A stretch of 64,000 nt of DNA from Planctomycetota bacterium (GTDB lineage: Bacteria; Planctomycetota; PLA2). The position numbers and the translations under genes are program-made. This document shows, in pieces, positions 10,594 through 62,362 of this stretch (positions within the stretch are counted from its first letter, which is position 1; every line of letters starts with the position of its first letter). The stretch lies in assembly GCA_021776735.1 (NCBI GenBank), contig JAJFFH010000042.1, forward strand, positions 8,767 to 72,766, read 5' to 3'. The notes beneath the pieces were generated by a model. The model worked only from the letters and a program-made list of their open reading frames with translations, made no database searches and had not been told where the DNA came from.

Positions 10594-11676
10594 TCAACGC
10601 ATCAGGGCGGCGCGGGTCTTTTTGTCGTACACCTTCGGGAACGAGCGCTTGTCGCCGATCGCGCGGTGGATTCGCTTGGCCAGGCCGACGCAGGCGCGGT
10701 GCATTCGGTCGCCCGCCGGAACCGGTTGCGGATAGCCGCGCTTGAGCAAGGTGCGGACCCGCTTGCCTGCTTTCTTGTGGCGCTTTGCGATGGCGGCCAG
10801 GGCATCGACCGAGATGCCGGTCAGGCCGTTACGGATCGCGCCGCTGGTGGCATGCGGTGCGATCACGTCGATCGAACGCGCGTCGCCGCACGTGGCCAGC
10901 GCCTGCACCGCACGGATGCGCAGCACGTTCGGGTTCAGGCTGTTTTTTGGTTCGTGCACGAGGCTTTCAAGCGCTTCGCGCGCCTCGGGCCGCCCGAGTT
11001 TTCCAAGCAGTGCACACACGCGGTAGCGAAACGGGTCGTTCGGGGTCGCCAGGAGCGCACCCGCCCGCTCCGCGACGAGTCCGGGTTTTTTGTCGGTCAA
11101 GACCCCGAGCGCCACGTAACGCACGACGATGTCTTGGTCCTCGAGCCCCGCGCGCGCGAGCTTGACCGACTTCTTGGTTTCGATCGCGTCCGCCCGTTTC
11201 TCCGCTGCCGCCGCATCCTTGAGCACCGCGCGCGAGCGCGTCTTGGCAACCCGCGTGGCGCGGACCGCCGCCAGAAACGACGCCGTCTTGCGTCCCGTGT
11301 GCCGCAGAATCCGCAGCGTCGCCGGATCGGCCAGAAAAAGCTGCGGCCAGCTCGACACCCCGAACCGCCAATGCGTCCGGGTCGCCGCGCGGTCGGCGCC
11401 GGTGCCGCTGAAATCGGTGTAGACGTAGAGCCAGACCGCCTTGTCGTAGACCGCCCTGAGCTCCGGATTCGGAAGCAACTGCTTCTCGACGATGACGCAG
11501 TGCGGTCAGTAGGTCTTGGTGAAGTACATAAAAAGCGGCAGGCCCTTTTCGAGCGCCTGTGCCCGCGCCCGAGCCAGATCGCGCACCCAGGGCGGACCGA
11601 CGGGCGGCGTCTCGCTCTTGCCCGCCCAGGCGGACGTCCCCAGCACCAACAAGATAGGCAACGCACGCATTCGCAT
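10594..11676 (-). CDS. candidate selenoprotein: secreted thioredoxin-fold (Thioredoxin_7/DUF255-like) domain with UPHC redox motif fused to HEAT-repeat domain; in-frame TGA at 11506-11508
   Basis: Translation from ATG 11676: signal peptide MRMRALPILLVLGTSAWAG, then ...GLPLFMYFTKTY-[TGA]-PHCVIVEKQLLPNPELRAVYDKAVWLYVYTD, continuous in frame with the 294-aa ORF. The TGA sits exactly at the first Cys of a CxxC motif. A 5-bp hairpin (GAAGC AGTT GCTTC) lies ~20 nt downstream. Confidence 0.55.
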
Positions 11677-43700: not shown

Positions 43701-43815
43701 CGAGAGCGTCCTGCGCAACATCGGCCGCCTCGTGTTCATCGAACAAGAGCCTCCGGGCGAGCGCGTGCACGAATCGCGAGTGCGCAACGAATTCGTCCGA
43801 CGTCGGGTCTGTCAT
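40705..43815 (-). CDS. ECF sigma-70 domain fused to TM helix and periplasmic carboxypeptidase-regulatory-like repeat array (paralog 2)
   Basis: MTDPTSDEFVAHSRFVHALARRLL..DVAQDALVIAM (sigma2), RTVIVMRFFEDLPPRRIAKRLGVSVETVKSRQQRGL (sigma4), TM helix, then GRVTDPDGNPVAGARV-type repeats. Confidence 0.8.
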   Translation of the reverse strand: MTDPTSDEFVAHSRFVHALARRLLFDEHEAADVAQDALVIAMEDQDAPRRSLRAWLRGVVRNRVGVSLRSRERRAARERRRAKSEGVPATVDDLARLEAQRRLVEAVRKLDREHRTVIVMRFFEDLPPRRIAKRLGVSVETVKSRQQRGLAKLRGALDRVFRGRGAWCAALVGLLASSRASAAPAVAFGGARLVMGLLAAVTVLTIVLVPHTADERPRMRIDRGAALLSKAVAGDAERNVGPMRGVVVDDRDQPLEGAQVRALDGAAVRTGPSGDFEANAGPSRYVLLRVSHPECFTAERWVDTQAAGDVRMVLNRGTPLAVVVTTVDGEPVAGAIVTGWFSATGEDEDDESFAPRTTDAEGRARLGAVRGSVTVFAHQLGFVSASKTVPAAPADVRLELDPGGVVEGRVTDPDGNPVAGARVHVQGRRVTVVHSDANGRYRLPAIPPWEAYIRAEADGFAPGYFGPGLGWGGPIALNLPSGDVETGIDIVLSSPTTITGRVTDERGQPVAGVRASVVLREDRWVDTVAYSNKEGRFRLGPFALQNASEIFVLLQSDTHFFSQPGPGVRVEPGQELDVGTRKGAGRCTVKGRVLGPDGNPVRAGRVDSTGGKSSAILPDGSFEIRGLRVGAAWLVAFDRDGNRSPSVEVEAGSEASGTTVLEVRECKSITGRVVMPAGEPVRGRYVMIVSSDAKQPYRDYAGEAFGPNEVRRDGTFTFRSLLPGLYKVGVSRTDLALQFDPAFEPWTVEAGGRDVTLVVPFAGGYVKGRVRSKRTGLPLTSYVVALYRMSKLVRVEENVEDIESESGTFLTAVPPGKWVIEIAAESHAPFLSEPLRVTAGKTVDLGGIRLGDEGRVSAKVTDPLGNAVRWAAVYALPPGRETGFPGTLTNQRGHSTVWLLRPGRYAVCVLSPRHPFAVHSVDVEGGVTNEVAVQLAAPAPLTIRVVDDRSRPLANAELTWTCPALAPMDSSTMPWREPEGHGCSRTGGDGILRKPFLPLGPVQLSIAAEGFRTKTRTVTLEPGQPRAIEVRLERAR

Positions 43816-48500: not shown

Positions 48501-49045
48501 AGGCCTGCCAGAACACCGCGCAGCATCTCACGCACGCGGGCGGCCGGAAGCGGGCGGCCGCTCGCGACGATGTCGTGCAGAGTCCCGCGCGGCACGTACT
48601 CCATCTCGAGCATGACGTCGCCGTCGCTCTCGTGCAATCGCAGCAGCGTGACGATGTGCGGCGACTGGAGCCGCGCCACCAGCCTCGCCTCCACCAGGAA
48701 GGGCGCCGGATCGGTGTGCGCGGTGTGCACGACCTTGAGCGCCACGCGTCGCCCGAGTTTTTCGTCGCGCGCGAGGTAGACGACGCCGAAGCCGCCGCGC
48801 CCCAGCTCCCGTTCGATCACCAGGTGTCCAGCGCCGGCGATCCGCGTCGCTTCCCCCTGCGGTGGATCCGACGGCGCCGTCACTTCCGAAAGAAACGGTC
48901 CCGCCCGGTCGTGGGCGTCCAGCAGCTCGTCGACCGCCCGGCGGAGCGCAGCGTCACTCCCGCAGAGGCGCTTCAGCGCACGCGCCCGCTCCTCACCGTC
49001 CAGGTCGAACACCCCCGTGAAGATTGAACGAGCGGAATCGGTCAC
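45557..49045 (-). CDS. Ser/Thr protein kinase fused to AAA (STAND-like) ATPase and TPR repeats
   Basis: HRDVKPANVLL, DFGLA, SYMAPE kinase motifs; GESGVGKTAL P-loop; long TPR region; GTGA overlap with the upstream ECF sigma stop. Confidence 0.85.
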   Translation of the reverse strand: MTDSARSIFTGVFDLDGEERARALKRLCGSDAALRRAVDELLDAHDRAGPFLSEVTAPSDPPQGEATRIAGAGHLVIERELGRGGFGVVYLARDEKLGRRVALKVVHTAHTDPAPFLVEARLVARLQSPHIVTLLRLHESDGDVMLEMEYVPRGTLHDIVASGRPLPAARVREMLRGVLAGLAAAHDAGILHRDVKPANVLLAADGAPRLTDFGLALTVADLAGATEARGPVGTPSYMAPEILLGRSASIASDLWSIGVLAYELACGEPPFPRTDLSALFRAVQSAEYEPPRDIDPGVARVIERCLVADPVARAQSSAELLDILDRPLATLAPRDDSGAPLFGRESETDRIDGWIREGRAGLVLVTGESGVGKTALLVDARRRVREHGRHWCDLEFTAGGGLAGGLRSALHRALSSESPAVFAEAAEAALHRWSGGAPADLCCDHVEHLQADELALLTTLVRRLAGSGWRIWVGARPGAATELAEVDGSLRLELEGLAAEALFSLLEERAGVALPPELAQTIAERCASNPRFGIELLEDLEASGAIVREANRFTLRPGWREEALPARFRDLAEARIVRLAEEDRLLLEVAAVDGVEVEGQAVAAVAGLPLLATLRHLQRLCRAPAVLRTAPSGYLFATPILQEALYEQMAPELRTATHRALATHLEPREEIDPKRLARHWTACNEAGRARPHLLRASQEAAQAMRRRECLRFARQAGLLEADCADDLLIDQATLVERVASTLIEEGESDAALSLLERLAHAARDRGDEELALRSLVRRERVELTTKGRADEALLRDCAERLANTRAGADANLLLGTALKRRNELEEAAEFLQLAITQLKRLDDVALRSAAVDQLGSVALRRLQFDEAAALYAEAADLADRAGRRGNAASSRVNLAIATLSAGKLEGAKPALERAIRTLALEGHRSNAAQARWILAKVREAEGDLAGAKREIETALPVLRETRNTLALVHVLLNLGLLSVATGDADEAMTLLAEARALAIEQNNEAIQAEVIVAQAQLAMLQGRRDDAATRLAELAPPLTSATAEGAAMALLLDAPRPEWARKVDGGEVGHLLFRVVDGLAAEAPAATDLAAMLDSRRAVPVAYRRAAHAAIGHFLAGRIAAHLGDTDVARREFAEGLAGAVAMGYAPLEEKIRAADDALPPG

Positions 49046-49611
49046 GCCGCGCCACCCGTCATAAGCTGGTAGAGGCGCGCCCGCGCGTAGGACCACTCGC
49101 GGTGGACGGTGCGCCGCGAACGCTTTAGCGCGAGCGCGGTCTCGTCCACGCTCAGGCCCGCGAAGAAGCGGAGCCGGACGACACGGGCGAGGCCCTCGTC
49201 TTCCGTCGCGAGCTTTGCCAGGGCGTCGTCCACCGCGAGGATGTCGATGGCGTCGCCCTCCGACGCGAGGTCGATGAGGCCGAGGGGCAGCCGCGCGGCA
49301 CCGCCCCCCCGCTTGTCCCGGCCGCGCGCACGGGCGTGCTCGACGAGGATGCGGCGCATCGCCTCCGCGGCAGCGCCATAGAAGTGCGCGCGGTTCTCCC
49401 AGGCGACATCGGGCGCGTGGACGAGGCGAAGGTAAGCCTCATGGACAAGCGCGGTCGTCTGCAGCGTGTGATCGGCACGCTCCTTGGCCATGCGGTGTTG
49501 CGCGATCTTGCGGAGCTCGCCGTAGACGGCGTCGAAGAGCGGCGCGGAGACATCGCGCCCGGTCGTTGCGTCGCGCAACAGATTGGTCACGTCCTCGGGG
49601 CCGGCCGTCAT
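49042..49611 (-). CDS. ECF sigma factor, TIGR02999 (kinase-associated) type
   Basis: LFDAVYGELRKIAQHRMAKERADHTLQTTALVHEAYLRL and C-terminal ETALALKRSRRTVHREW; start placed at MTAGPEDVTNLL. Confidence 0.8.
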   Translation of the reverse strand: MTAGPEDVTNLLRDATTGRDVSAPLFDAVYGELRKIAQHRMAKERADHTLQTTALVHEAYLRLVHAPDVAWENRAHFYGAAAEAMRRILVEHARARGRDKRGGGAARLPLGLIDLASEGDAIDILAVDDALAKLATEDEGLARVVRLRFFAGLSVDETALALKRSRRTVHREWSYARARLYQLMTGGAA

Positions 49612-49915
49612 CGCGCGAATGATAGCGAATCCGCCCCGAAACGGATCGCCGCAGGGTGTGGGGACAGGCGGATCGCGACCGGACAACGAGGGCCGCGAGT
49701 TCACAGGAGATCGTCTCCGTCATCTTCCTCGGGGTCGAATCAATGCCCCCACTGTGCCGCCCCCGGCGCGCGGCTGCGAATGATCGACTTCCCGGGACCG
49801 CTCATGCTCGACCTGAGGCGCGTCCAGCGGACCGCCTTCGACCACGGACAGCGATGCGGCGCCCTGTTTCGAGAGACCGACGCAGACTCAGCCAGTAGAA
49901 TCCCGAGTTCGAGAC

Positions 49916-49951
49916 GACCCCGTAGCTCAGCTGGATGGAGCGGCTGATTCC
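49916..49951 (+). other. tRNA-Arg 5'-half pseudo-copy (positions 1-35, 1 mismatch)
   Basis: GACCCCGTAGCTCAGCTGGATgGAGCGGCTGATTCC matches the tRNA at 62114 through the anticodon-loop base 35, then diverges. Confidence 0.7.
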
Positions 49952-51158: not shown

Positions 51159-52103
51159 TTACGGGGATCGAGTTCCAGGAGGAAGCGATTCAATGATGTT
51201 CCACGCCTTCTCGCACGGCCCGACCCGTAATCGCCGGAGAGCCAACGCCAGAGCAGCTATATTGCGTTTGCGCTTCGCGCACTCCGATGCCAGGTCTAGT
51301 AGTGCCGCGGGTACCGCATGCCTGTCAGGATCCCTTGAATGTTGTCCCTTGCGCACTGATGTCACTAGCCAACTGAAGCGCTCCTCGCCCGTCGCGAGGG
51401 TTGACGCCTCCCAGTAGGCGCGAGCACTGGACGCGGCCGGGCGCAAACTTCGCCGGTAGATCCCAAGCGAGCGCATGCGGGCTGCTCGAGCTCGTCTGCG
51501 ATCCCGATCGTTGAGAGAGTCCTCTCTCAACCAACTCGCCGCTGTCAACTCCAGCCCAACGGTGGCGAGCAGCGTGATATACCGCAGATTGCGGTCGCCG
51601 CGTAGTCGCCCGGCGAGCCTCCGAGCGCAGCGCAGGAGATACTCTCGCGGCGCGTCTCGACGCTTGGCTGCCCCGGAGAGCGCCTTGAGCGACTTGCGCG
51701 TTTCGCCTGTCCGGGAGTAGGCGTCGCCAAGATATGTGAGAGCGATCCCGGTCTCCTTCTTCGCAATGGCCTCGACAAGCACCTCGATCGCTCTCGTCGA
51801 GTTTCGTGCCCGAAGATAAAGGTAGCCGGCGCTCTCCAGCGATTCGTGAGTCCGAGTGCGACCCGGGAGGTCCATGATCCAGTCCGCTGCAGCCGCCGGA
51901 GTCTTGAGCACGCCCCGCATCCGAACCACTTCGCGAACGACGCCGGCAACGTGCGTGGAGCCGGCCGCGATCGTCGACGTCATCAGCGAGCGCCCGTCCG
52001 AGGCACGTTCCACGGCCTCCCGGTATGCTCCGCGCCGGATTTGCTCGTCGAGGCTCTCCGCTTGCCAGCCGACGAGCAGGAGGACCAGTGTCGCTACTTG
52101 CAA
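51159..52103 (-). CDS. hypothetical helical protein
   Basis: Overlaps the upstream gene stop; lower GC; last gene of the putative 5-gene minus-strand operon. Confidence 0.45.
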   Translation of the reverse strand: MQVATLVLLLVGWQAESLDEQIRRGAYREAVERASDGRSLMTSTIAAGSTHVAGVVREVVRMRGVLKTPAAAADWIMDLPGRTRTHESLESAGYLYLRARNSTRAIEVLVEAIAKKETGIALTYLGDAYSRTGETRKSLKALSGAAKRRDAPREYLLRCARRLAGRLRGDRNLRYITLLATVGLELTAASWLREDSLNDRDRRRARAARMRSLGIYRRSLRPAASSARAYWEASTLATGEERFSWLVTSVRKGQHSRDPDRHAVPAALLDLASECAKRKRNIAALALALRRLRVGPCEKAWNIIESLPPGTRSP

Positions 52104-53092
52104 AAGTGCGCCATCCAGTTCCGCGCGTCCGCGCCAAGGTCCGTACCGACAAGGTCGGCGAGGGCGGCGCGCACCTCCGGCCCGTCGACAGGATGACCGA
52201 GAGCGTCAAGGAGTGCCTGCAGGTGAGACGTGTCGCCCGATCGAAGTGCGCGAAATGCCGTCCTCAAGCGCGGGTCGTGCGGCGGTGGGACCTTGGCGGG
52301 CTTTCCCTTCAGTCGCTGCTTCCACCACGCACCGCGCTTGGGATCGATCGCTGCCGCAATTTCGAGATAGGCGGGACCGTCTTCCACGTAGAGCCGGACG
52401 AGGGCGAATGCGGATCGCGGAGACTCCTTCAGCGCCGCGAACCACTTCGGGCTCGGCGCCGCCTCACAGAGGAGGAGCAGCACCGCGGGTGCGAGTGGAT
52501 CGTCACGCTTCAGGTACTCGATCGGACTCAGACCTCCGCGAAGTTCTCGCATGACCCCGCGTCGGGTTCCGCTTGCGAGTGCTAGGGCCCGAGCAGGCGC
52601 GACCTTGACGAGCGCGAGCTCGCACGCTCTCTGCAGTTCACCCTCCTCTATCGCGAACTCTTTGCGCCAGAGCAATGTTCCGTCGGGAGCGAGGATGACG
52701 TGTTGGGGGGAGATAATCTCGTTGTCGTTCGACCAACGCTGCAGCGAGAGATTCAGAACATCACGGTGAGTTCCGCAATCCGTGGATCCATAACGCGCGC
52801 ACGTTCCGTCTCGATCGTGATCGTGGGGATTCGCAACCAAGCAGATCATCGGCCGAGCCGCCGCAACAAGACCGTGGCTCGCGTACGCGTTCGACATCGC
52901 AGCGTCACGGCCGCGGGCACGGTCAAGCGCGTTGATCACGATCAGGATTGGCCGCCCTTCATTCTGTGCTCGCGTAACACTACCCCTAAGTCCACGGGCC
53001 CACTGGATGCGCTTTGCGGACTCCGTGGCTCCGATTTGGTGCGGTGATAGGAGCGCACATAGGATCAGGGAGCACGCAAGCCGCGTTGTCAT
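52094..53092 (-). CDS. secreted thioredoxin-fold-like protein lacking CxxC (noncatalytic paralog) with helical C-terminal domain
   Basis: Signal peptide; RPILIVINALDRARG...QHVILAPDGTLLWRKE resembles the Thioredoxin_7 scaffold with the CxxC replaced; ATGA overlap with ECF fusion 3. Confidence 0.45.
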   Translation of the reverse strand: MTTRLACSLILCALLSPHQIGATESAKRIQWARGLRGSVTRAQNEGRPILIVINALDRARGRDAAMSNAYASHGLVAAARPMICLVANPHDHDRDGTCARYGSTDCGTHRDVLNLSLQRWSNDNEIISPQHVILAPDGTLLWRKEFAIEEGELQRACELALVKVAPARALALASGTRRGVMRELRGGLSPIEYLKRDDPLAPAVLLLLCEAAPSPKWFAALKESPRSAFALVRLYVEDGPAYLEIAAAIDPKRGAWWKQRLKGKPAKVPPPHDPRLRTAFRALRSGDTSHLQALLDALGHPVDGPEVRAALADLVGTDLGADARNWMAHFCK

Positions 53093-56055
53093 CGCTCGCC
53101 CTCAAACCGAAACCGTAGCAGCGCTGCCACGCCCGACTTGACGGTGATCGGCGCACTTCCGTCCTGTAACCACCGACCGTCCCGGAGGAACCAGAGAGTC
53201 GCGCTGTACTTGCCCGGCCCAACCTTGGCGAACTCGAACTTACCTGCCGCGTCCGCCTTCACCGGCGCGAGGCTGCGATCGACCGCTCGCGACATCAGGG
53301 TTGACTCGCTCATGTCATACTTTGGTACAAGTCGAATACGTGCCGACCCACCGAGGCCAACATCGACTCTCCCGTGAACGGTGCCAGGCGATTCGAACTC
53401 CACCCTTACTGACGTCGTTCGATTTGCGGCTGCCACGTACGGAACCGCTCTCCATCCATGACCGCGCGCTCGAACCAGAACTACGCCGGCCCCAGGTGTC
53501 ATGGGTCGCGTTGCCCGGCCGTCATACTTGACGAAACCGGATCCCTGTGGAATCCCCAGTCCGCGCTCCGTAGTCACCGCGTACTCCAAGGATTTCTCAT
53601 CCGCGCCGCGGACGATCAACTTCAGCCTCGCTGGACCACTGGGCAGTCGAATAGCGGCCTCGGAATCCAAGGCAACTGGCACTCGCAGCGCGGCGACGAT
53701 CGGGTCCTTCTTCGCCGAGAGTGAGTACGGACCAGGAGCCAGGTCGTCGAACCGAAACGCACCATCTGCAGAAGTCGAAGTCATTCCCGGGCTCGGTCCG
53801 TGAAGTGTGACGGTGAGTCCGGGGACCGGCTCACCGGCCCCGTCAAGAACTCGGCCGTACACCGATCTACCACCTCCCCGAGCGACGCGAATACGCCTGA
53901 ACTCTCCGGCTCCAATCGCAAAGTGCCGGCGGAGTGAGCCCGCGCAAACGAGATACTCGCCGGCGGGAAGTCGATCGAATTCAACGTGCCCTTCTTTGTC
54001 TGTCGTCGATAGAGATTCGTGCTCCAACGCGAACAGAAAGGCCTCGTAGCGGCGGGGCTCGTCTTCGCGTGCTTTCACTCGGCGCGTGAGCGACACGGTG
54101 GCGTCAGAGACCGGGTGACCGGAGACCTCGTGAACTTCCAGAGAGACGCGACTGGATTCTGTGCCGACGAGTTCCACCGACACTCGCGTTCCGGGCCGGA
54201 CGTCAAGGCCATCGAGGAGGGCCGGAGCGCTGCCCGGTATCAGCGCAGCCAACGTACTCGCCCCACTGGACGAAACATGGGACGCGCCTATCAGCTTGAC
54301 TTCAACTTCAAAGCGGCCGTTCGGATCCGACCACCCGTGAACGACCGGGAGGCCAACCAGCGCTCTCGCAAAGATGCGCTGACGGAATAGTAGGAGGGGG
54401 GCATCGACAACCTCATCGCCACGCGAGTTCCGAACCACGCCATTGATGTACATCGAATGTCGCAACCGAACTTCTGCGCCTCGGACTGGCAGCAGCTCGT
54501 ACCCCGGCGCAGAGACGAAACACGTCGAGTATTCACGCTGTACCGGGTATCGGATCAGCCCATCGGCGTTCGCAACAAGTCGCCGTCGCGCAATCTCCTG
54601 TCCGTACACCGCGCCGCGGCCGGCTGAACTCGCAACGATGAGATACGCATCTGGTATGGGTGCACCAGAAGTGGCCGAGACCGCGCGCACGGTACGGGTC
54701 CTGACTTCTTGAAGAACGATCTCGATCATGCCGCGGTCCGTGAGATAGCTCTGTTCCACATAGGCCAGGCCCGCCTGCAGTGGGACAATGGAGAGGCGAA
54801 ATCGATGTGAGGGGGCCGACGGAAGGCGCGCGAGCCCTCGTGCATCGGTCACTGTCTCAGCGAAGACCTGGCGAGCGACACCGCCAAGATGCAACGTCAC
54901 GACTTGGATTGTCACGCGCTCCACCGGTCTTCCGCTCGTCTCACGCACACGAATCTCGACAGGATTCTGTTCGCGCACGGTAATCGTCGATTCGTCGCCC
55001 GGGCGGATTGACCCGACAAACGCGGGCGCGAATCCCTTGGCGCTGACGGTCACACCGTGCCGAGCGCCACCCGTTCGCTTGAAGGAAAACTGCCCATCCG
55101 AACCTGTCACAGTCTCGAACGGCCTCCGCCTTTCGCGTTCCCGTCTCAACACTGCGGCTGGCGCGACAAGTGATCCGCCGCGGACCTCCGTGGAGAGATA
55201 GACCAACCGGACTCGGGCCCCAGGCACCCCTTTCCCAGCTTCGTCGACAACCCGTCCCTCATAGCCACTCGTAGCGGGGTCAGTTTCGTCCCTCGCAGGA
55301 GGAGCGATCACAGTTTCCGCGTGTGTCGGGTCACGGCCGGGAGTTCGCGTTCGCGCCCCGTAGTCTGCAACGCGCTCCACTTCTGCTCCGCCGCTGACCC
55401 ACATCGCAACTCCCACGCCGAGGACTCCGAACACGGCTGCGCCCAGTGCACCGAGCCGGAACCATGCCGAGTCAGTCACGGCGGGACTCGTACGCACGGT
55501 CTCGCGCGAAGGCAGCCCCCAGAGTGCGACGACAGGCAACCAAGCGTGACGCTTACCGTCGTAAGCGCGATCAAGTGCATCTCGCAGCTCCGAAAGCGCG
55601 CGGTATAGCCTTGACTCCACCGTCCGAACCGAGATCGACTCTGATTGCGCAATTTCCGTAGGTGTGCGGCCGTCAAGGTAGCGGTAGACGATCATCGACT
55701 GATAGGGTTCTCGGAGCGAGTAGACGGCCGCAACCACTCGCTTCTGCAGTTCGATCTTCGCCGCTACATCTTGGGTCGACGGGGACGTTGCGCTCTGTGC
55801 GACAGCCAGCTCGCGACGGCGCCGCCTTCCCCGTGTCCGATGGGAGCGCTTGGCCAAGTTTCGCGCGATCGTTGCCAACCAACCGCGAACGTTGGTCTGG
55901 GTCTTCAGGGGTCGCTCGAGGGCGACTAGAATCGTCTCGTGCGCCAAGTCTTCCGCGTCGTTGAAGTCGACGACGAGTCCGCGGGCGAGCCTTCGCACGA
56001 ACTCGAAGTGATTCCCGAGTTCCTCGGGCGGGAGCAGCGGCCGCGGTCCATTCAT
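53089..56055 (-). CDS. ECF sigma-70 domain fused to TM helix and periplasmic carboxypeptidase-regulatory-like repeat array (paralog 3)
   Basis: DLAHETILVAL (sigma2), QSMIVYRYLDGRTPTEIAQSESISVRTVESRLYRAL (sigma4), TM helix, GRVVDEAGKGVPGARV-type repeats. Confidence 0.8.
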   Translation of the reverse strand: MNGPRPLLPPEELGNHFEFVRRLARGLVVDFNDAEDLAHETILVALERPLKTQTNVRGWLATIARNLAKRSHRTRGRRRRRELAVAQSATSPSTQDVAAKIELQKRVVAAVYSLREPYQSMIVYRYLDGRTPTEIAQSESISVRTVESRLYRALSELRDALDRAYDGKRHAWLPVVALWGLPSRETVRTSPAVTDSAWFRLGALGAAVFGVLGVGVAMWVSGGAEVERVADYGARTRTPGRDPTHAETVIAPPARDETDPATSGYEGRVVDEAGKGVPGARVRLVYLSTEVRGGSLVAPAAVLRRERERRRPFETVTGSDGQFSFKRTGGARHGVTVSAKGFAPAFVGSIRPGDESTITVREQNPVEIRVRETSGRPVERVTIQVVTLHLGGVARQVFAETVTDARGLARLPSAPSHRFRLSIVPLQAGLAYVEQSYLTDRGMIEIVLQEVRTRTVRAVSATSGAPIPDAYLIVASSAGRGAVYGQEIARRRLVANADGLIRYPVQREYSTCFVSAPGYELLPVRGAEVRLRHSMYINGVVRNSRGDEVVDAPLLLFRQRIFARALVGLPVVHGWSDPNGRFEVEVKLIGASHVSSSGASTLAALIPGSAPALLDGLDVRPGTRVSVELVGTESSRVSLEVHEVSGHPVSDATVSLTRRVKAREDEPRRYEAFLFALEHESLSTTDKEGHVEFDRLPAGEYLVCAGSLRRHFAIGAGEFRRIRVARGGGRSVYGRVLDGAGEPVPGLTVTLHGPSPGMTSTSADGAFRFDDLAPGPYSLSAKKDPIVAALRVPVALDSEAAIRLPSGPARLKLIVRGADEKSLEYAVTTERGLGIPQGSGFVKYDGRATRPMTPGAGVVLVRARGHGWRAVPYVAAANRTTSVRVEFESPGTVHGRVDVGLGGSARIRLVPKYDMSESTLMSRAVDRSLAPVKADAAGKFEFAKVGPGKYSATLWFLRDGRWLQDGSAPITVKSGVAALLRFRFEGER

Positions 56056-56119
56056 GGGTCACCCCCATTAGAAGCCCGCGAACGAGATTGACACTGCACG
56101 CTCCTCGGAGATTTGGCTG

Positions 56120-57862
56120 TTAGCGATCGCAATCCACCACCAACTCCAACGACGTGTTCTTGTCCTTGACCCTCCATTCCGCGGTGGCCCTCGCTCGGCC
56201 ACGACGGGCTTCGAGTCTCAGCTCACGGTGCTTTTCATCAACCTCCACGACGTATCGGCCCCGACTGTCGGTGCGGCCCCATGTGAGTTCGCGCGCGCGC
56301 GGATCTACGGGGTAGACGCGTACCATCACGTTTGCGAGTGCGATCCCCTCCGGGGTTCGCACGGCACCCTCGATGCGGCGCACAACGCCGAGCTGCACTT
56401 TCAGAGTCTCCGTTCCCGAACCCGGGAGCCGTCGTTCGAAGGCCCGCACGGCGAGGAACCCTCTGCAACGAACGCCGATTCGCACAGTTGTATTGGCTTC
56501 GCTTGTGATGACTACGGTGCCGCGGGCGTCGGTCCGATAGGGGACCGGCTCCATCAGTGCATAAAAGGGCAAGTTTGCCGTGCCGAATTTCAACAACGTG
56601 TTGGGCACGATGGTCACGATCGCGTCTGGCAACGGCTCCTTCTTTGGTCCGACCACCGAGATCTTGAGAGACCCGGCGGAAGTTCGTCGCAGCATGGCCT
56701 CCGTCTCGCTACCCGGCTCGCCGGTAACACCAAATTGGGCGGCGTTCCGCATGCGCCCCGACGGATTGACGCGAACGACGAAACGCGCATGCGGGACCAC
56801 ACCACGAAACTCGTAACGGCCGTCCGCTGAAAGGCGGACGACTGAGTGTGTTCTCACGCCCAGATTCGGAACCGGAAACGAGAGCGTGGCAAGCTCAACG
56901 AGTGTCTTCGTCCCGCGAGCACCCTGGGCTCGGCCGCGTAGAGTGACGGGCTTCTTGAGCGTAACTGTCGCGACGCCGTCGATCGTTGAGCAGGGCTGAA
57001 TCCCGTTCGGCATGACCTTGAGAAGCGCGACGCCGCCTGCCGCGTCGACGAGTTCGACCGTGGCGTAGTTTGGGAAACTCGGTAGCGAGAACTTGCCGTC
57101 GCGCCCTCGGATGAGCCGGTGGCCGTCCGCATCAGTCAACCCGACGACACGGATTCGAACACTCTGGGCTGGCTTTCCGTTTGCAAGCACTACCTCCAGC
57201 GGGTGCGTGCGCCCGTGCCCAACAACAGTCGATTGCCTCGACGCGGAATCGGCGTCGACAGCGAACTCCGATACAGACGTTCGCTCGTACCCCCACGCGT
57301 CGATGGAGCCGTCGTACCGCCCCGGCATCACGCCCTCGAACACGGCGGTGCCTTTGGAGTCGGCTCGGGTTGAGACCGCTCGCACACCTCGGCGGCGCGG
57401 AGTGGGCCGGATGCTGACGATTGCATGTGGAACCGGGCCACCGGCAGGACTCACGACCTGTACAACCACTTGGCTGCCCGGACGCACAGTGATCGTGACC
57501 GGGTCGCCGGAACGAACCCCCTCGACCTCACCTGCTGCCCGAGACCCGGCGTGCTGAGCGCGCAGCCGCATCGAAAACGCTGTAGGACCGGCCAACTGCA
57601 CGGTCCCGTCCTTTCCGGTCGTGTCCGGAGCTGACCGTTTCGACCACCAGTGCCTGTGCGGTACGGTCCGCGTGATTCGCACGGTAGCGCCCTGTAGCGG
57701 CCGCCCATTAACATCAACGACCGTTACGATCGTGCGCCGGTCATCTTCGGCTGCAGCAGCTGTGAGCAGAGAGAACAGCACGAAGATCACGAGGCACACT
57801 CGTGCGCCGTTCCTAGCGGTCGGCATGCTGCCCACCCTTCTTTTCATCCGCGCTCTCAGCAA
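56120..57862 (-). CDS. secreted/membrane-anchored protein made of carboxypeptidase-regulatory-like beta-sandwich repeats
   Basis: N-terminal hydrophobic segment; repeats such as VVDVNGRPLQGATVRI and VVSPAGGPVPHAIVSI. Confidence 0.7.
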   Translation of the reverse strand: MLRARMKRRVGSMPTARNGARVCLVIFVLFSLLTAAAAEDDRRTIVTVVDVNGRPLQGATVRITRTVPHRHWWSKRSAPDTTGKDGTVQLAGPTAFSMRLRAQHAGSRAAGEVEGVRSGDPVTITVRPGSQVVVQVVSPAGGPVPHAIVSIRPTPRRRGVRAVSTRADSKGTAVFEGVMPGRYDGSIDAWGYERTSVSEFAVDADSASRQSTVVGHGRTHPLEVVLANGKPAQSVRIRVVGLTDADGHRLIRGRDGKFSLPSFPNYATVELVDAAGGVALLKVMPNGIQPCSTIDGVATVTLKKPVTLRGRAQGARGTKTLVELATLSFPVPNLGVRTHSVVRLSADGRYEFRGVVPHARFVVRVNPSGRMRNAAQFGVTGEPGSETEAMLRRTSAGSLKISVVGPKKEPLPDAIVTIVPNTLLKFGTANLPFYALMEPVPYRTDARGTVVITSEANTTVRIGVRCRGFLAVRAFERRLPGSGTETLKVQLGVVRRIEGAVRTPEGIALANVMVRVYPVDPRARELTWGRTDSRGRYVVEVDEKHRELRLEARRGRARATAEWRVKDKNTSLELVVDCDR

Positions 57863-59627
57863 CCCTCGGTCGAGTCGCGCGCAGGTACGTCGCCTTGGCG
57901 TCCGCGCGGAGAAGCGAGCGCCAACGCGCGGGCCACTTCTTGGGCTCGCGTCCCCGGTACATCTCGACCGGTTTCACCGTGAAGTCGTAGATTCTCGCGC
58001 GCGTGGGCAGCACGACTCGCATTTCATCGTCCGTGGTGGACGGGCGTGCCTTCCGCACTCGCATGATCTCGACGGAGACAAGGCTGTCGGAGAGCGAACT
58101 CGCGTTCCGAAGTTGGACGACGAGAACCGGGAAGAGATAGCCGCCCCAGTCGCCGTAAACGGCGAACCCGAGGGTTCGAAAACCCTCGTCGTTCGGCAAG
58201 CGGGGAGGACCGCCCTTCATTGCTGCCGGCGCGGCGGATCGTCCCCACACGATCGGCAACCCGCTCGCTGAGCAGTGGATCGACTTGTCGCTCTTGACAC
58301 CGAGTTGCCAGACCCCTTTCGTCACATAGGAGTCCGCGATTATCGTCGCGGCCCCGCCAAAGGGCAGAGGCGCTAGAAGGACTGGAGGGCGACTGGTTGT
58401 GCCTGCTTGACCTGCAGGCAGTATCTGCACCGAGTTGCGGTTCTCGGAAAACAGAATCGCGAACTCGGGGGTGGAGAGCAACTGCTGGCGTTGGATGGCG
58501 CGGCCGTCGGTGAGATTGGGCGCGAGACGGTCACCAAGAAGCTTCGGCGTCAGCAGCTTCGTGACATCGATTCGAGCCACCTCCAAGAATCGAACTCCAT
58601 GACTCAGCATCGTCACGTCCCGGATCCCCGCGTGACCCGGAAAGACGGGACCGACTGACTCGGCGCTCGTCTCAAAGGCCCCGGCCTTTGGTTTCTGGAT
58701 CAGGACCGCCTGGATTTCCTTCCAGAGTTCCTCCACGGTTGACTCGCGAGCAGACTGCAGTTTCGCGCCAGCCGCCTGGACGCGGACCAAGAGGCCGGCA
58801 AATCGATTGCCGTCCACGAGTTTCCAAGGCACCATCTGCCCGACCACACTCATCTCCACGAGGGAGTTCTTCAGCGACTTGACATCGTTCGGCCACCGCT
58901 CCGCGAATCTACCAAGTGCCTGTCGTGCCACCCCGCGGTCTCCGGGCGATGAGCGGAATTCAACGCGGCTTCGCGGCTGGAGCTTAGGTTGGCCCGAGAC
59001 CCGGCGCGCTGGCCGAAGGTTCTTCCGGGCATCAGCGAGCTTCACCCGGTGGTTCCTGCTGGCCGCTGCATAGGCCTTGAGGAAGGCGACCTCAGAGGAG
59101 CTTGAGTCGAAGACCCTCTGTGCGACCTCTACAACGGCATCGACTCGTCTAAAGTAGTTCAGCAGTGTGTGGCAGTGCGCGGCAGCGTCAACCCACCGCT
59201 GCTCGTTCTGTGCTTCGATCATCGCTCTCTGAACCGGCGATGCGAGGGCCTGCACAAACTGTTCAGGCCCCGGCCCGCCCGCGCTGTTCAGGAGCACGGT
59301 TCCGGTGGGGTCCATGAGCACCAACGTCGGGAAAGCGCTGACGTCAAATCTCTTGCGAAGTCGTACTTTGGCCGCCGCTCTTCCATCCTTGACCTTCAAG
59401 CACACGAGGCGATCCAGGAACTCCCGCACATCACGGCGCGGAAACGTACGCAATTCCATTGCGCGGCAGGCGCCTCACCAGTCTGCGTCGAAGTCGATGA
59501 ACAGTAGCTTTCCCTCTTTCACAGAGCGCTCGCGAGCACGTTCGAAATCGGTCTCCCACTTGATCTCCTCGGCATGGGACCAGGCGACGAAGAGGAGCAG
59601 GACGGTCAGGGTCTTGATAATGCGCAT
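57813..59627 (-). CDS. candidate selenoprotein: secreted thioredoxin-fold domain with WUGAC motif (in-frame TGA at 59475-59477) plus ~530-aa C-terminal domain
   Basis: From ATG 59627 (GGAGA 8 nt upstream): MRIIKTLTVLLLFVAWSHA EEIKWETDFERARERSVKEGKLLFIDFDADW-[TGA]-GACRAMELRTF..., continuous with the 548-aa ORF. The TGA replaces the first Cys of WCxxC. A 6-bp hairpin CGCAAT-GGA-ATTGCG starts 12 nt after the TGA. Confidence 0.6.
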
Positions 59628-59788
59628 GAGTGTCTCCGAGCAAGACTGCCGCACGACACGGCTGGCTGCTCACGTAGATAAGCCCGCGAACGGCATCGAG
59701 ACTGCACGAAAGACACCGCCGACCGTGTCGGGGTCTCTGATAGCGACAGAGTCGATCGGCTAGAAGGACGGGAGGAGGCTGAAAACTC

Positions 59789-60721
59789 GTGGATCTCGAA
59801 AAGTTCAAGGAGGAACTCGTGGATCAGGCTGTCGGCCGAGTCGCCTTGTTCCATTGCCAGCACAGTATCAAGTGCTGCCTCGCGATCCACCGCCTGCTTG
59901 ATCGTTTCCCCGACTGGGGAGTCGATGCGGGCACTCGGCTGGCGGACACTATGGGCGAGGAACCGCCCGTCGATGCGCTCGGCGATCGTCTCCCTCACGA
60001 CCTTGATTGGGGCGGAGATTGCAGAGGGATCCTGGAGAAGGGGCTCTTTGCCGCCGCCTACGTCGCGATGCGAAATTTGGTGAGGGACTCGTCGCTCGAC
60101 GCGGTCCTGTCCGAGTATGTCGATCGCGCGTGCAACGACCCGGAACACCTTGGCCACAACGTGTCGATTCTCTGCGCGTTTCTCGGCATGCTGCCGCTGC
60201 TCGAAGGGCGAGACGATCGCCTCGGGCTGTTCCTCGACCGCCTCACCGAGTTCGTCACGGCGGCGTTCCACAACATCCAGAATCGCCTTGTCTTCGACGC
60301 GCGCCCCATGCCCGATCACGAGCCGACCCAACAGGAGGTGCTGCGGGCAGCGTTCAAGCAGCCGGGCTACTTCGGGCACCAACTTCTCACGTCCGTGTGG
60401 TCGCGACGTTACCGGGGCCAGTTGGGCGCGGACGGGTACAGCAACGCGATCCGAGGGATCTGGGAGACGTCCCACTGGGAGATACCCGAGAAGAACCGTT
60501 TTTCGATCGAGCCCACGGAACGTCCCCTGGACGACGAGCGATTCGCCGAAGCCGTGAGGGGACTGGCCCTCCACGGCCCTAAGAACATCCACCGGGTCAC
60601 CCTTGCCGAGGCTCTCGTGGACCTGTGGGACCAGGCGGAGGACGACGCGACGCGCGCACGGGCGTTCTCGGCCGCGGAGCGCTTTAGTCAGTCGGCGCGT
60701 CCGGTCGCGACATCCGCGTAG
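59789..60721 (+). CDS. conserved hypothetical protein, paralog B (HSIKCCLAIHRLLDRFP family)
   Basis: ~70% identical to the 33374..34309 product. Confidence 0.7.
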   Translation: MDLEKFKEELVDQAVGRVALFHCQHSIKCCLAIHRLLDRFPDWGVDAGTRLADTMGEEPPVDALGDRLPHDLDWGGDCRGILEKGLFAAAYVAMRNLVRDSSLDAVLSEYVDRACNDPEHLGHNVSILCAFLGMLPLLEGRDDRLGLFLDRLTEFVTAAFHNIQNRLVFDARPMPDHEPTQQEVLRAAFKQPGYFGHQLLTSVWSRRYRGQLGADGYSNAIRGIWETSHWEIPEKNRFSIEPTERPLDDERFAEAVRGLALHGPKNIHRVTLAEALVDLWDQAEDDATRARAFSAAERFSQSARPVATSA

Positions 60722-62113: not shown

Positions 62114-62187
62114 GACCCCGTAGCTCAGCTGGATAGAGCGGCTGATTCCTAATCAGCAGGTCGCAGGTTCGAGTCCTGCCGGGGTCG
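62114..62187 (+). tRNA. tRNA-Arg (anticodon CCT)
   Basis: Acceptor GACCCCG/CGGGGTC, D-arm GCTC..GAGC, anticodon stem GCTGA/TCAGC with loop TTCCTAA, T-arm GCAGG TTCGAGT CCTGC, discriminator G. Confidence 0.85.
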
Positions 62188-62332
62188 CTTGATCACGAAC
62201 GTGGGGGGTAGGGGATGGCCGGAGCCAACAAGCGCAGCGAGTTGGCGCAGGACAGATCCGTAGGGGGGACGCTGTCCCCCCTGAAAAGCTGCGCCCCGCG
62301 AAGCGTCTGCGCAGCGAAGCGCAGCATGCGTG

Positions 62333-62362
62333 AGCAGGTTCGAGTCCTGCCGGGGTCGCCAC
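62333..62362 (+). repeat. duplicate of tRNA-Arg 3' end (T-arm, acceptor, discriminator, CCA), att-like
   Basis: GCAGGTTCGAGTCCTGCCGGGGTCGCCA identical to tRNA positions 49-73 and followed by CA. Confidence 0.75.

What the first reader, a model, noticed from the sequence alone, without database searches (positions are those of the whole stretch)
51159..59627. Putative five-gene envelope operon: thioredoxin-fold selenoprotein (WUGAC), beta-sandwich repeat protein, membrane-tethered ECF sigma fusion, CxxC-less thioredoxin-like paralog, helical protein
All five genes are on the minus strand with overlapping or near-abutting boundaries (57862/57813 overlap, 56120/56055 gap, 53092/53089 ATGA, 52103/52094 overlap), which suggests co-transcription. 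The first gene has a signal peptide and a textbook thioredoxin active-site context (FIDFDADW-x-GAC) in which the first Cys codon is TGA. The reading frame continues for another ~550 codons, as expected for selenocysteine. The ECF sigma in this operon is a fusion with no separate anti-sigma. This points to a periplasmic selenol/thiol redox module coupled to a one-component sigma, an arrangement I do not recognise as described. The block is lower GC (~58-60%) than the rest of the window and lies inside the tRNA-Arg-bounded region.
Basis: partly seen in the sequence, partly recalled or inferred. Interest (0 to 1): 0.85.

Follow-up and report, generated by a model that had tools for sequence, protein, structure and literature searches.

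The report
Secreted thioredoxin-like selenoprotein gene cluster
The "stop" codon in the first gene almost certainly encodes selenocysteine in a secreted thioredoxin-like protein that databases split into two genes, but this is a new variant of a known kind, and the proposed link to the neighbouring sigma factor is only weakly supported.

Summary
The minus-strand ORF 59627-57813 has one in-frame TGA (59477-59475) exactly where a Thioredoxin_7/DsbD-gamma-like domain has the first Cys of CxxC.

The selenocysteine reading is well supported:
- All 11 distinct relatives whose DNA I read carry TGA in the same column.
- Cys-containing homologues exist (CEPC, CPHC, CHYC).
- The Sec forms carry a downstream hairpin under synonymous-site selection. 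The window's own copy is weak.
- A second, unrelated Trx_7 gene in the window (11676-10594) has the same TGA-for-Cys pattern. It belongs to a large Planctomycetota family.

The Sec machinery could not be checked.

Gene 1 is a unique fusion of the Sec-thioredoxin domain to a LolA/LolB-like domain. In other genomes that domain is a separate protein paired with a gene-2-like beta-sandwich protein.

The ECF sigma with a membrane anchor and a long C-terminal extension is a type already described in Planctomycetes, and the window holds three of them. Its adjacency to the selenoprotein recurs in only one other locus.

A 28-nt element occurs only upstream of gene 1 and of gene 3. This suggests two co-regulated units rather than one transcript.

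The cluster lies in a 12-kb, lower-GC stretch flanked by tRNA-Arg repeats.

Verdict: new variant of a known kind, of moderate interest.

The parts
57813..59627 (-). Gene 1, full selenoprotein ORF (604 codons incl. Sec51). It consists of a signal peptide, a Thioredoxin_7/DsbD-gamma-like domain with U-G-A-C, a helical linker and a LolA/LolB-like domain. Databases annotate it as two genes (50 aa + 548 aa).
59475..59477 (-). In-frame TGA, read as selenocysteine (codon 51), in the column of the first Cys of CxxC
59571..59627 (-). Predicted signal peptide MRIIKTLTVLLLFVAWSHA (read from the sequence; the same N-terminal pattern occurs in Sec and Cys relatives)
59238..59558 (-). Thioredoxin_7 / DsbD-gamma-like domain (residues ~24-130)
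59448..59464 (-). It is a candidate SECIS for this copy but is not statistically distinguishable from background.
59439..59458 (-). Position of the family-wide hairpin (nt 20-39 from the U of UGA). In this copy 7 of 8 pairs form with one U.U mismatch, -3.8 kcal/mol.
57858..58940 (-). Domain X of gene 1 (residues ~230-590). The predicted fold is LolA/LolB-like. Homologues elsewhere are stand-alone secreted proteins with a C-terminal membrane anchor.
56120..57826 (-). Gene 2: a signal-anchored protein of CarboxypepD_reg/transthyretin-like beta-sandwich repeats. It overlaps gene 1 by 14 nt. Homologues follow domain-X genes in L094-L096.
53089..56055 (-). Gene 3: ECF sigma (sigma2 + sigma4, residues ~16-165), a single TM helix (residues 198-224) and about 760 residues of extracytoplasmic beta-sandwich repeats. 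No anti-sigma domain was detected.
52094..53092 (-). Gene 4: a secreted protein with a weak thioredoxin-like N-terminal region lacking CxxC, a conserved C-x-R-[YF]-G-x3-C-x2-H motif and a helical C-terminus. It overlaps gene 3 by ATGA. A homologue sits next to a Sec-Trx gene in L092.
51159..52103 (-). Gene 5: a helical protein with no family assignment (one faint TPR-like hit)
59680..59707 (-). Copy 1 of the 28-nt element GTGCAGTNTCNATNNCGTTCGCGGGCTT, 53-80 nt upstream of the gene 1 ATG. Candidate shared promoter or operator.
56072..56099 (-). Copy 2 of the same 28-nt element, 17-44 nt upstream of the gene 3 ATG, inside the 64-nt gap between genes 2 and 3
49916..49951 (+). A 36-nt copy (1 mismatch) of the 5' half of tRNA-Arg(CCT). 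It forms the left boundary of the 12-kb lower-GC stretch that holds the cluster.
62114..62188 (+). Intact tRNA-Arg(CCT), the right boundary. An exact 26-nt copy of its 3' end follows at 62334-62359.
10594..11676 (-). Second selenoprotein gene in the window (supporting evidence for Sec decoding in this genome). It has a signal peptide, a Trx_7 domain with U-P-H-C (TGA 11508-11506) and HEAT repeats.

Best explanation
**Gene 1 (largely shown).** Gene 1 is one gene whose UGA at codon 51 is decoded as selenocysteine. Its product is exported by an N-terminal signal peptide. It carries a DsbD-gamma-like thioredoxin domain with the redox motif U-G-A-C, which would do selenol/thiol-disulfide exchange in the cell envelope. 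This domain is fused to a LolA/LolB-like domain, a half-barrel that normally binds hydrophobic ligands. In other genomes that domain is a separate, membrane-anchored protein encoded just before a gene-2-like beta-sandwich protein.

**The cluster (inferred).** It lies in a 12-kb, lower-GC, tRNA-Arg-flanked stretch of a Planctomycetota-like genome. It is probably two co-regulated units, genes 1-2 and genes 3-5, each preceded by the same 28-nt element. The simplest reading is that the membrane-tethered ECF sigma of gene 3 drives its own unit and the gene 1-2 unit from that element. Its extracytoplasmic repeats would be the sensing part. How the sigma is activated was not tested: it could be released by proteolysis or act while tethered. 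Whether the selenoprotein is an output or an input of that switch was not tested either.
For: **Sec reading**
- The Thioredoxin_7 profile spans the TGA, and each half matches its own half of the profile.
- Coding periodicity is continuous across the TGA.
- An exhaustive HMMER search gave 60 relatives. Many begin exactly at the conserved Met 6 codons after the TGA, i.e. they are truncated gene calls. Full-length relatives have CEPC, CPHC or CHYC in that column.
- All 11 distinct related loci whose DNA I read have TGA in that column, with conserved signal peptide and beta1/alpha1 upstream.
- Six of the 12 family sequences (window included) have a perfect 8-bp hairpin at nt 20-39 after the UGA, and two have a 6-bp version shifted by one base.
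- Pairing is 81% in register against 28-56% when the partners are slid.
- Stability against synonymous recoding: mean z = -2.14 in Sec forms and -0.33 in 80 Cys forms (Mann-Whitney p = 1.4e-5).
- A second Trx_7 gene in the window has TGA in the same column. Its family has about 100 truncated clusters and about 15 full-length TKTYCPHC forms, mostly from Planctomycetota. TGA was confirmed in L097 and L099.

**Architecture**
- Domain X followed by a gene-2 homologue is a conserved pair in L094-L096, with the same 14-nt overlap in L096.

**Regulation**
- The 28-nt element occurs exactly twice in 64 kb, upstream of gene 1 and of gene 3, with 0 expected by chance.
- Sigma2 and sigma4 are present, and TIGR02937 scores above its cut-off. 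There is a single TM helix at residues 198-224.

**Island**
- tRNA-Arg repeats flank the stretch. GC is 63.0% inside and 67.2% outside.
Against: - The window's own candidate SECIS is weak. Stability is no better than synonymous recodings (z = -0.08).
- No Rfam family matches.
- selA, selB, selD and tRNA-Sec are absent from the 64 kb, and the rest of the genome could not be searched.
- Gene 1's fusion architecture is a singleton among 5.8 billion clusters, so it has no orthologue to confirm it.
- Covariation in the family hairpin is thin: one pair with a double change, in three related sequences.
- Adjacency of an ECF fusion to a Sec-Trx gene recurs only in L004. It is absent in L087 (a close relative of L004), L089, L092 and L100/L101. 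With three such fusions in 64 kb, chance adjacency is plausible.
- The 28-nt element has no recognisable -35/-10 consensus, and the promoter scan found nothing.
- No integrase was found in the putative island.
Confidence: 0.7

Rival explanations
1. The TGA is a true stop, as in the public annotation. A 50-residue secreted peptide and a separate 548-residue cytoplasmic protein starting at ATG 59459 are made, and no selenium is involved.
For: Gene callers in two sources split the ORF this way. An ATG lies 6 codons after the TGA. The local hairpin is not statistically supported in this copy. The Sec machinery is unverified.
Against: - The split would cut a thioredoxin fold in two, leaving the signal peptide on one piece and most of the domain on the other.
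- The same TGA column and the same following Met recur in 11/11 distinct relatives, while the Cys forms are continuous.
- That Met is also conserved in the Cys forms, so it is a structural residue and not a start signal.
Confidence: 0.05
2. Gene 1 is a recent pseudogene. A TGC-to-TGA nonsense mutation, or a sequencing error, hit a Cys-type thioredoxin fusion carried on a decaying genomic island.
For: The fusion is a singleton. It lies in a lower-GC island without an integrase. This copy has the weakest hairpin among the F/Y-type family members.
Against: - The closest relatives of the Trx domain are Sec forms, not Cys forms.
- The ORF is otherwise intact over 604 codons with a normal coding signature.
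- The same sequence is found in an NCBI assembly and in an independent Logan assembly.
- ACG-UUU-CC, the 3' arm of the family hairpin, is retained.
- A second Sec gene lies in the same contig.
Confidence: 0.07
3. The five genes are not a functional system. A domain-X/beta-sandwich pair (genes 1-2) and an ECF-fusion unit (genes 3-5) merely sit side by side in an island, and the sigma has no particular relation to the selenoprotein.
For: - ECF fusions of this type are very frequent here, with three in 64 kb.
- Planctomycete ECF duplicates are reported to insert fortuitously (PMC7671368).
- The linkage is not conserved in L087, L089, L092 or L100/L101.
- The conserved partner of domain X is gene 2, not a sigma.
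Against: - The 28-nt element is shared only by the two upstream regions.
- An ECF-CarboxypepD_reg fusion sits directly upstream of a Sec-Trx gene in L004.
- A gene-4 homologue sits next to a Sec-Trx gene in L092.
- The five genes are tightly packed and co-directional, bounded by opposite-strand genes on both sides.
Confidence: 0.3

Closest known systems
Bacterial thioredoxin-fold UxxC selenoproteins, e.g. [quoted passage not shown]
   Same: Sec replaces the N-terminal, nucleophilic Cys of CxxC in a thioredoxin fold. Cys-containing homologues coexist. A hairpin lies shortly downstream of the UGA inside the coding region. Annotation truncates the genes. Gene 1 also passes the PF13098 cut-off (34 bits against 27).
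   Different: - The best domain match is Thioredoxin_7/DsbD-gamma (PF13899), for which the 2026 inventory lists only a CxxU Trx7/PDZ family.
- No curated NCBIfam selenoprotein model reaches its cut-off.
- The family has its own helical tail.
- Gene 1 alone adds a LolA-like domain.
C-terminal (gamma) domain of DsbD, and the solved Trx_7 protein 2kuc
   Same: These are the closest solved relatives by sequence profile (2kuc E=3e-20; DsbD-gamma about 1e-14). They are periplasmic thioredoxin-fold reductase domains with a CxxC in the same position.
   Different: Gene 1 is a soluble secreted protein, not part of a membrane electron transporter. It has Sec instead of Cys. No DsbD/CcdA-type membrane partner lies in the cluster.
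Planctomycete ECF sigma factors with long C-terminal extensions (Pinto & da Fonseca 2020, PMC7671368; ECF classification 2.0, PMC7826278). From my own recollection, the sigma/anti-sigma hybrid IutY of Pseudomonas putida is a studied single-chain, membrane-spanning example.
   Same: One polypeptide carries sigma2 and sigma4, with no sigma3, then a membrane helix and a large extracytoplasmic part. No separate anti-sigma gene is present. The family is multi-copy within one genome.
   Different: The extension here consists of CarboxypepD_reg/transthyretin-like repeats, which the two papers do not mention. The linker between sigma4 and the membrane helix is only about 30 residues, too short for a classical anti-sigma domain. 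Assignment to a numbered ECF group was not tested.
LolA/LolB lipoprotein carriers, and RseB/MucB (LolA-fold periplasmic partners of the RseA/MucA anti-sigma factors)

Membership tests
Bacterial selenoprotein gene (UGA decoded as Sec) | The in-frame UGA aligns with a Cys, usually redox-active, in homologues | tested here: met
   The column holds C in P0005 (CEPC), P0013 (CPHC), P0015 (CHYC) and 80 genome loci (CGPC, CEPC, CGAC, CEAC)
Bacterial selenoprotein gene (UGA decoded as Sec) | The UGA and the reading frame on both sides are conserved in independent relatives | tested here: met
   11 of 11 distinct related loci (L002-L004, L085-L092) have TGA in the same column with homologous flanks
Bacterial selenoprotein gene (UGA decoded as Sec) | A SECIS stem-loop lies within the coding region shortly 3' of the UGA. 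From my recollection of bSECISearch: apical loop 16-37 nt from the UGA, with a G in the first two loop positions. | tested here: inconclusive
   Family: an 8-bp or shifted 6-bp hairpin in 8 of 12 sequences, synonymous-recoding z = -2.14 against -0.33 in Cys forms, one covarying pair. This copy: two mutually exclusive weak hairpins that fit the geometry, but z = -0.08. No Rfam hit.
Bacterial selenoprotein gene (UGA decoded as Sec) | selA, selB, selD and tRNA-Sec are present in the genome | not testable with these tools
   None is in the 64-kb window. The genome is not in the searchable species collection. Indirect support: a second conserved Sec gene in the same contig, and some Planctomycetes are known to have the machinery (PMC4807772).
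Thioredoxin_7 / DsbD-gamma-like thioredoxin fold | The profile match exceeds the curated cut-off across the whole domain | tested here: met
   PF13899 scores 45.5 bits against a cut-off of 27, profile 2-83/83, with U read as C. The family profile hits 2kuc and DsbD-gamma in the PDB.
Thioredoxin_7 / DsbD-gamma-like thioredoxin fold | The active-site dyad (C/U)xxC is present, together with the conserved Pro of the loop before beta3 | tested here: met
   U51-G-A-C54 is present. C54 and P100 are invariant in the family alignment.
Curated NCBIfam selenoprotein families (e.g. TsoB NF045694, Trx7/PDZ NF041199) | The score reaches the family's trusted cut-off | tested here: not met
   TsoB scores 41 bits against 805, over the DsbD-like part only. 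Trx7/PDZ gave no hit for gene 1, and 20.6 bits against 300 for the second selenoprotein.
ECF (group 4) sigma factor with a C-terminal extension | sigma2 and sigma4 are present, sigma3 and sigma1 are absent, and the extension is fused in one ORF | tested here: met
   PF04542 and PF08281 are above cut-off. TIGR02937 scores 61.5 against 42.9. There is a TM helix at 198-224 followed by CarboxypepD_reg repeats.
ECF (group 4) sigma factor with a C-terminal extension | No cognate anti-sigma factor is encoded nearby | tested here: met
   No anti-sigma domain family matched genes 1-5 at E<0.01 in Pfam or NCBIfam. A divergent, unmodelled anti-sigma domain cannot be excluded.
LolA/LolB/RseB superfamily (domain X of gene 1) | An unclosed beta-barrel with a helical lid, shown by structure comparison | tested here: met
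Single polycistronic operon of five genes | The genes are co-directional, with overlapping or short junctions and no internal promoter | tested here: inconclusive
   The junctions are -14, +64, -4 and -10 nt. The 64-nt gap carries a copy of the 28-nt element that also precedes gene 1. There are no transcript data.
tRNA-associated genomic island | Direct repeats of part of the tRNA flank the stretch, its composition differs from the surroundings, and it encodes an integrase | tested here: inconclusive
   Repeats are present: a 36-nt 5' half at 49916, the intact tRNA at 62114, and a 26-nt 3' copy at 62334. GC is 63.0% against 67.2%. No integrase was found.

The most novel reading that the evidence does not exclude
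The Sec-thioredoxin::LolA-like protein is the periplasmic sensor of the switch, not merely its output. In an RseB-like manner it would bind the extracytoplasmic repeats of the membrane-tethered ECF sigma, or of gene 2. It would release them when its selenylsulfide is reduced or oxidised, or when a hydrophobic ligand fills the LolA-like cavity. That would make a selenium-dependent envelope redox and lipid stress signalling module, carried on a mobile island.
Probability: 0.08. Interest if true: 0.8.

Novelty: new variant of a known kind. Interest (0 to 1): 0.45.

Why it matters
**Annotation.** Two families of secreted thioredoxin-like proteins in Planctomycetota-type genomes appear to be selenoproteins that are systematically mis-annotated. 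They are recorded as a tiny upstream ORF plus a truncated 'hypothetical' or 'HEAT repeat' protein. One of the two families has more than 100 such clusters. Neither family has a curated model. Fixing this would enlarge the known selenoproteome of a phylum that the 2026 inventory I consulted (PMC13188914) does not mention.

**Biology.** Selenocysteine at the attacking position of an exported DsbD-gamma-like domain suggests that selenium chemistry is used for disulfide or peroxide handling in the planctomycete envelope. The fusion to a LolA-like domain next to a membrane-tethered sigma factor gives a concrete, testable candidate for how such a redox protein could be wired to gene regulation. The wiring itself is not yet shown.

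Tried and rejected
- **Rfam.** A scan of the whole window at gathering thresholds, and of the TGA region at E<=10, found no SECIS or other RNA family. Rfam may simply lack a model for this element.
- **Word-indexed protein searches.** The full gene 1 found only itself. The Trx domain alone found nothing. Only the exhaustive HMMER search found relatives.
- **First genome-contig scan.** Gene 1 gave no hit, so the source genome is not among the species representatives.
- **Second genome-contig scan.** Its search pattern required Cys, so it returned only Cys forms. I used these as controls.
- **Alignments.** Alignments A1 and A3 were too divergent for locus searches.
- **Promoter and terminator scan.** The consensus scan found nothing above chance.
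- **MFE z-scores.** This does not support it as a SECIS.
- **Gene 4 structure.** The single-sequence model had pLDDT 45 and was not taken to a fold search.
- **Conserved ECF linkage.** I considered that an ECF fusion is a conserved neighbour of the Sec-Trx family, and rejected it after L087, L089, L092 and L100/L101.
- **Alternative genetic code.** I considered TGA read as Trp or Gly, and rejected it. TGA ends ordinary genes here, for example gene 3 in the ATGA overlap.
- **sel genes.** Pfam scans of 42 ORFs across the window found no selA, selB or selD.

Full report
**1. What is in the sequence**

The five minus-strand ORFs exist at the stated coordinates.

- Gene 1, read from ATG 59627, gives MRIIKTLTVLLLFVAWSHAEEIKWETDFERARERSVKEGKLLFIDFDADW-TGA-GACRAMELRTFPRRDV... 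It then stays open for 553 codons to 57813.
- The pattern of low GC at codon position 2 and high GC at position 3 runs unbroken through the TGA.
- With the TGA read as Cys, Pfam Thioredoxin_7 matches residues 24-107 over its whole length (E=8.3e-12).
- The 50 residues before the TGA match profile positions 2-28 on their own. The residues after it match positions 31-83. The TGA therefore sits at the first Cys of the CxxC dyad.
- Across the whole window, only this TGA and one other (11508-11506) combine a UxxC/CxxU context with a coding signature on both sides.
- Corrections: the cluster's GC is 63.1%, not 58-60%. Gene 2 more plausibly starts at ATG 57826, which gives a clean signal anchor and a 14-nt overlap with gene 1.

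**2. Is the TGA selenocysteine?**

Word-indexed searches were blind to this divergent protein. An exhaustive HMMER search with the post-TGA part returned 60 relatives.

- Nine of them (P0006, 8, 9, 11, 12, 14, 20, 55, 56) begin at residue 1 exactly where the query has the Met six codons after the TGA.
- Full-length relatives carry about 50 extra N-terminal residues and have CEPC, CPHC, CHYC or SNAC in the dyad.
- I fetched DNA for every such relative I could: L002-L004, L085-L092, and L093, which is identical to L092. All 11 distinct loci have an in-frame TGA in the same column (T-U-GPC, W-U-GPC, G-U-KTC, W-U-PPC, G-U-HYC, W-U-GYC, G-U-HFC, W-U-PHC, T-U-PPC).
- In each the TGA is preceded by a homologous signal peptide and the I-x-W-E...EGKLLF segment. 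The gene callers had cut off a 44-57-codon upstream 'gene'.
- In a genome scan that could only find Cys forms, 287 stretches encoded relatives. The best 80 were kept, and all 80 have Cys in the same column.

This is the standard comparative signature of a Sec/Cys family.

**3. SECIS**

But the region is no more stable than shuffles (z = 0.0) or synonymous recodings (z = -0.08).

The family shows a different element, U-GGA-NNN-G / loop of 4 / C-NNN-UCC-A at nt 20-39.

- It is a perfect 8-bp stem in 6 of 12 sequences (-10.5 to -11.8 kcal/mol).
- It is a 6-bp version shifted by one base in L003 and L092 (-9.5 kcal/mol).
- It is weaker in L086, L004 and L087.
- In the window it forms 7 of 8 pairs with a U.U mismatch (-3.8 kcal/mol).
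- Pairing in register is 81%, against 28-56% when the partners are slid by 1-3 columns.
- Only one pair shows a two-sided change: A-U to U-A in three related sequences. At the protein level this is Glu...Phe against Asp...Tyr.
- Against synonymous recodings that keep the protein sequence, Sec forms average z = -2.14 and the 80 Cys forms z = -0.33 (Mann-Whitney p = 1.4e-5).

So the family carries an RNA-level constraint right after the UGA that Cys relatives lack. The window's copy keeps its 3' arm (ACG-UUU-CC) but is a weak example. Which of the two mutually exclusive hairpins works in this gene is open. Rfam has no matching family.

**4. Does this genome decode Sec?**

I could not search the rest of the genome. 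The contig is not among the species representatives, and no sel gene or tRNA-Sec lies in the window. The window does give independent evidence.

- A second gene (ATG 11676 to stop 10594) encodes a signal peptide, a Trx_7 domain with FMYFTKTY-TGA-PHC, and HEAT repeats.
- Its search returned 123 relatives. About 100 are truncated products of about 295 residues that start ten codons after the TGA column. Those with a source name come from Planctomycetota MAGs and are called 'HEAT repeat domain-containing protein'.
- About 15 are full-length forms with TKTYCPHC, including one from Gemmataceae.
- DNA of L097 and L099 shows the TGA and the same GAAGC-AGUU-GCUUC hairpin. In the window that hairpin region has z = -2.2.

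Two unrelated Trx_7 genes with TGA at the same catalytic position in one contig, each with conserved Sec relatives, make a nonsense mutation or a sequencing error very unlikely. Some Planctomycetes are known to have selA, selB and selD (PMC4807772). I put the Sec reading at about 0.85-0.9.

**5. What the protein is**

- The thioredoxin domain is closest to the solved Trx_7 protein 2kuc and to the gamma domain of DsbD. NCBIfam's best partial matches are DsbD and the DsbD-like part of TsoB, far below their cut-offs.
- Typical family members are 190-270 residues: a Trx domain plus a helical tail. Gene 1 is different.
- Its residues ~230-590 are homologous to stand-alone secreted proteins with a C-terminal membrane anchor (P0002, P0003, P0004, P0021).
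- In L094/L095 and L096 the stand-alone version is followed by a homologue of gene 2, either directly or after a DUF1573-like gene. In L096 the overlap is the same 14 nt.

So genes 1 and 2 are a conserved 'LolA-like + beta-sandwich' pair, onto which a Sec-thioredoxin module has been fused in this genome only. It is a singleton cluster.

**6. The sigma factor and the other genes**

- Gene 3 has sigma2 and sigma4 (TIGR02937 above cut-off), a linker of about 30 residues, one TM helix (198-224) and about 760 residues of CarboxypepD_reg-type repeats.
- Two paralogues with the same layout lie at 3819-6902 and 40705-43815. Their sigma parts are about 40% identical to gene 3's.
- Planctomycete ECFs with long and varied C-terminal extensions, arising by duplication, are already described (PMC7671368, PMC7826278). 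The 'one-component sigma' is therefore not new as a type.
- Gene 4 shows only weak profile similarity to the Trx family (hhalign probability 11.5%, rising to 40% with one homologue added). It has no CxxC. It shares a C-x-R-[YF]-G-x3-C-x2-H motif with a HEAT-containing homologue that sits next to the Sec-Trx gene of L092. Its single-sequence structure model was unusable.
- Gene 5 has no assignable family.

**7. One system or neighbours?**

For a functional link:
- The five genes are tightly packed and bounded by opposite-strand genes.
- An ECF-CarboxypepD_reg fusion sits directly upstream of the Sec-Trx gene in L004.
- The gene-4-like neighbour occurs next to a Sec-Trx gene in L092.
- Above all, a 28-nt element (GTGCAGTNTCNATNNCGTTCGCGGGCTT) occurs exactly twice in 64 kb. 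One copy is 53-80 nt upstream of gene 1. The other is 17-44 nt upstream of gene 3, inside the only real intergenic gap. Chance expectation is zero.

ECF sigmas usually autoregulate; that is established knowledge of the family. The economical reading is that the element is the promoter recognised by gene 3's sigma, and that it also heads genes 1-2. This is inference. The element has no recognisable consensus, and the promoter scan was silent.

Against a functional link:
- The ECF linkage is absent in L087 (a close relative of L004), L089, L092 and the Cys-form loci L100/L101.
- With three fusions in 64 kb, chance adjacency is not negligible.

**8. Setting**

- The first 36 nt of tRNA-Arg(CCT) (intact at 62114-62188) recur with one mismatch at 49916-49951. 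Its last 26 nt recur exactly at 62334-62359.
- The 12.2 kb between the 5'-half copy and the tRNA holds the cluster. It has 63.0% GC against 67.2% elsewhere, but no integrase.
- This looks like an old integration at the tRNA. The second selenoprotein lies outside it, so Sec decoding belongs to the host.

**9. Comparison and verdict**

- UxxC selenoproteins with a thioredoxin fold are a known kind (PMC13188914, PMC1794560, PMC1088965).
- This family is not covered by any curated selenoprotein model. A PF13899 UxxC family does not appear in the 2026 inventory, as far as I could search it.
- The Sec-Trx::LolA-like fusion is unique.
- I therefore rate it a new variant of a known kind.
- The selenocysteine call is strong. 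The 'redox module coupled to a sigma' idea is a reasonable but weakly supported hypothesis.

Noticed in passing
window 10594-11676 (-), TGA at 11508-11506: A second selenoprotein gene: signal peptide + Trx_7 with U-P-H-C + HEAT repeats. About 100 related clusters are truncated ~295-aa products, named 'HEAT repeat domain-containing protein' where a source names them, from Planctomycetota MAGs. About 15 are full-length TKTYCPHC forms. TGA and the same hairpin were confirmed in L097 and L099.
   Followed up: yes
window 3819-6902 (-), 40705-43815 (-), 53089-56055 (-): Three paralogous ECF sigma + single TM helix + CarboxypepD_reg-repeat fusions lie within 64 kb. Their sigma parts are about 40% identical. 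This implies a very large family in this genome.
   Followed up: partly
window 59680-59707 and 56072-56099 (-): A 28-nt element occurs exactly twice in the window, upstream of gene 1 and of gene 3. It is a candidate shared promoter or operator.
   Followed up: partly
window 49916-49951 (+); 62114-62188 (+); 62334-62359 (+): A copy of the 5' half of tRNA-Arg(CCT), the intact tRNA, and an exact 26-nt copy of its 3' end lying 146 nt after the tRNA. These look like traces of one or two integration events at this tRNA. No integrase was found.
   Followed up: partly
window 59789-60721 (+) and 33374-34306 (+): The 310-aa ORF divergent from gene 1 has no Pfam family. It has a 68%-identical paralogue 26 kb away, outside the putative island.
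   Followed up: no
L092 6913-8244 (-) and window 52094-53092 (-): The gene-4 family shares a conserved C-x-R-[YF]-G-x3-C-x2-H motif, possibly a metal or redox site. In L092 it lies next to a Sec-Trx gene. L092 comes from a sequencing run adjacent in number to the one that holds this window (SRR15505517 and SRR15505515), so it may be the same or a related organism.
   Followed up: partly
window 45557-49704 (-): A PF07638-type ECF sigma sits directly upstream of a 1179-aa Ser/Thr kinase with AAA_16 and TPR regions. From my recollection this is the planctomycete ECF-kinase pairing.
   Followed up: no
window 9427-10521 (+): A 364-aa AhpC/TSA-Redoxin-like protein lies convergent with the second selenoprotein gene. 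An adenylate-cyclase-domain gene (7006-8520) lies between it and ECF fusion 1. I did not examine its active-site residues.
   Followed up: no
L094 1067-1477 (+): A 136-aa, very Cys-rich secreted protein is encoded just upstream of the stand-alone domain-X gene.
   Followed up: no
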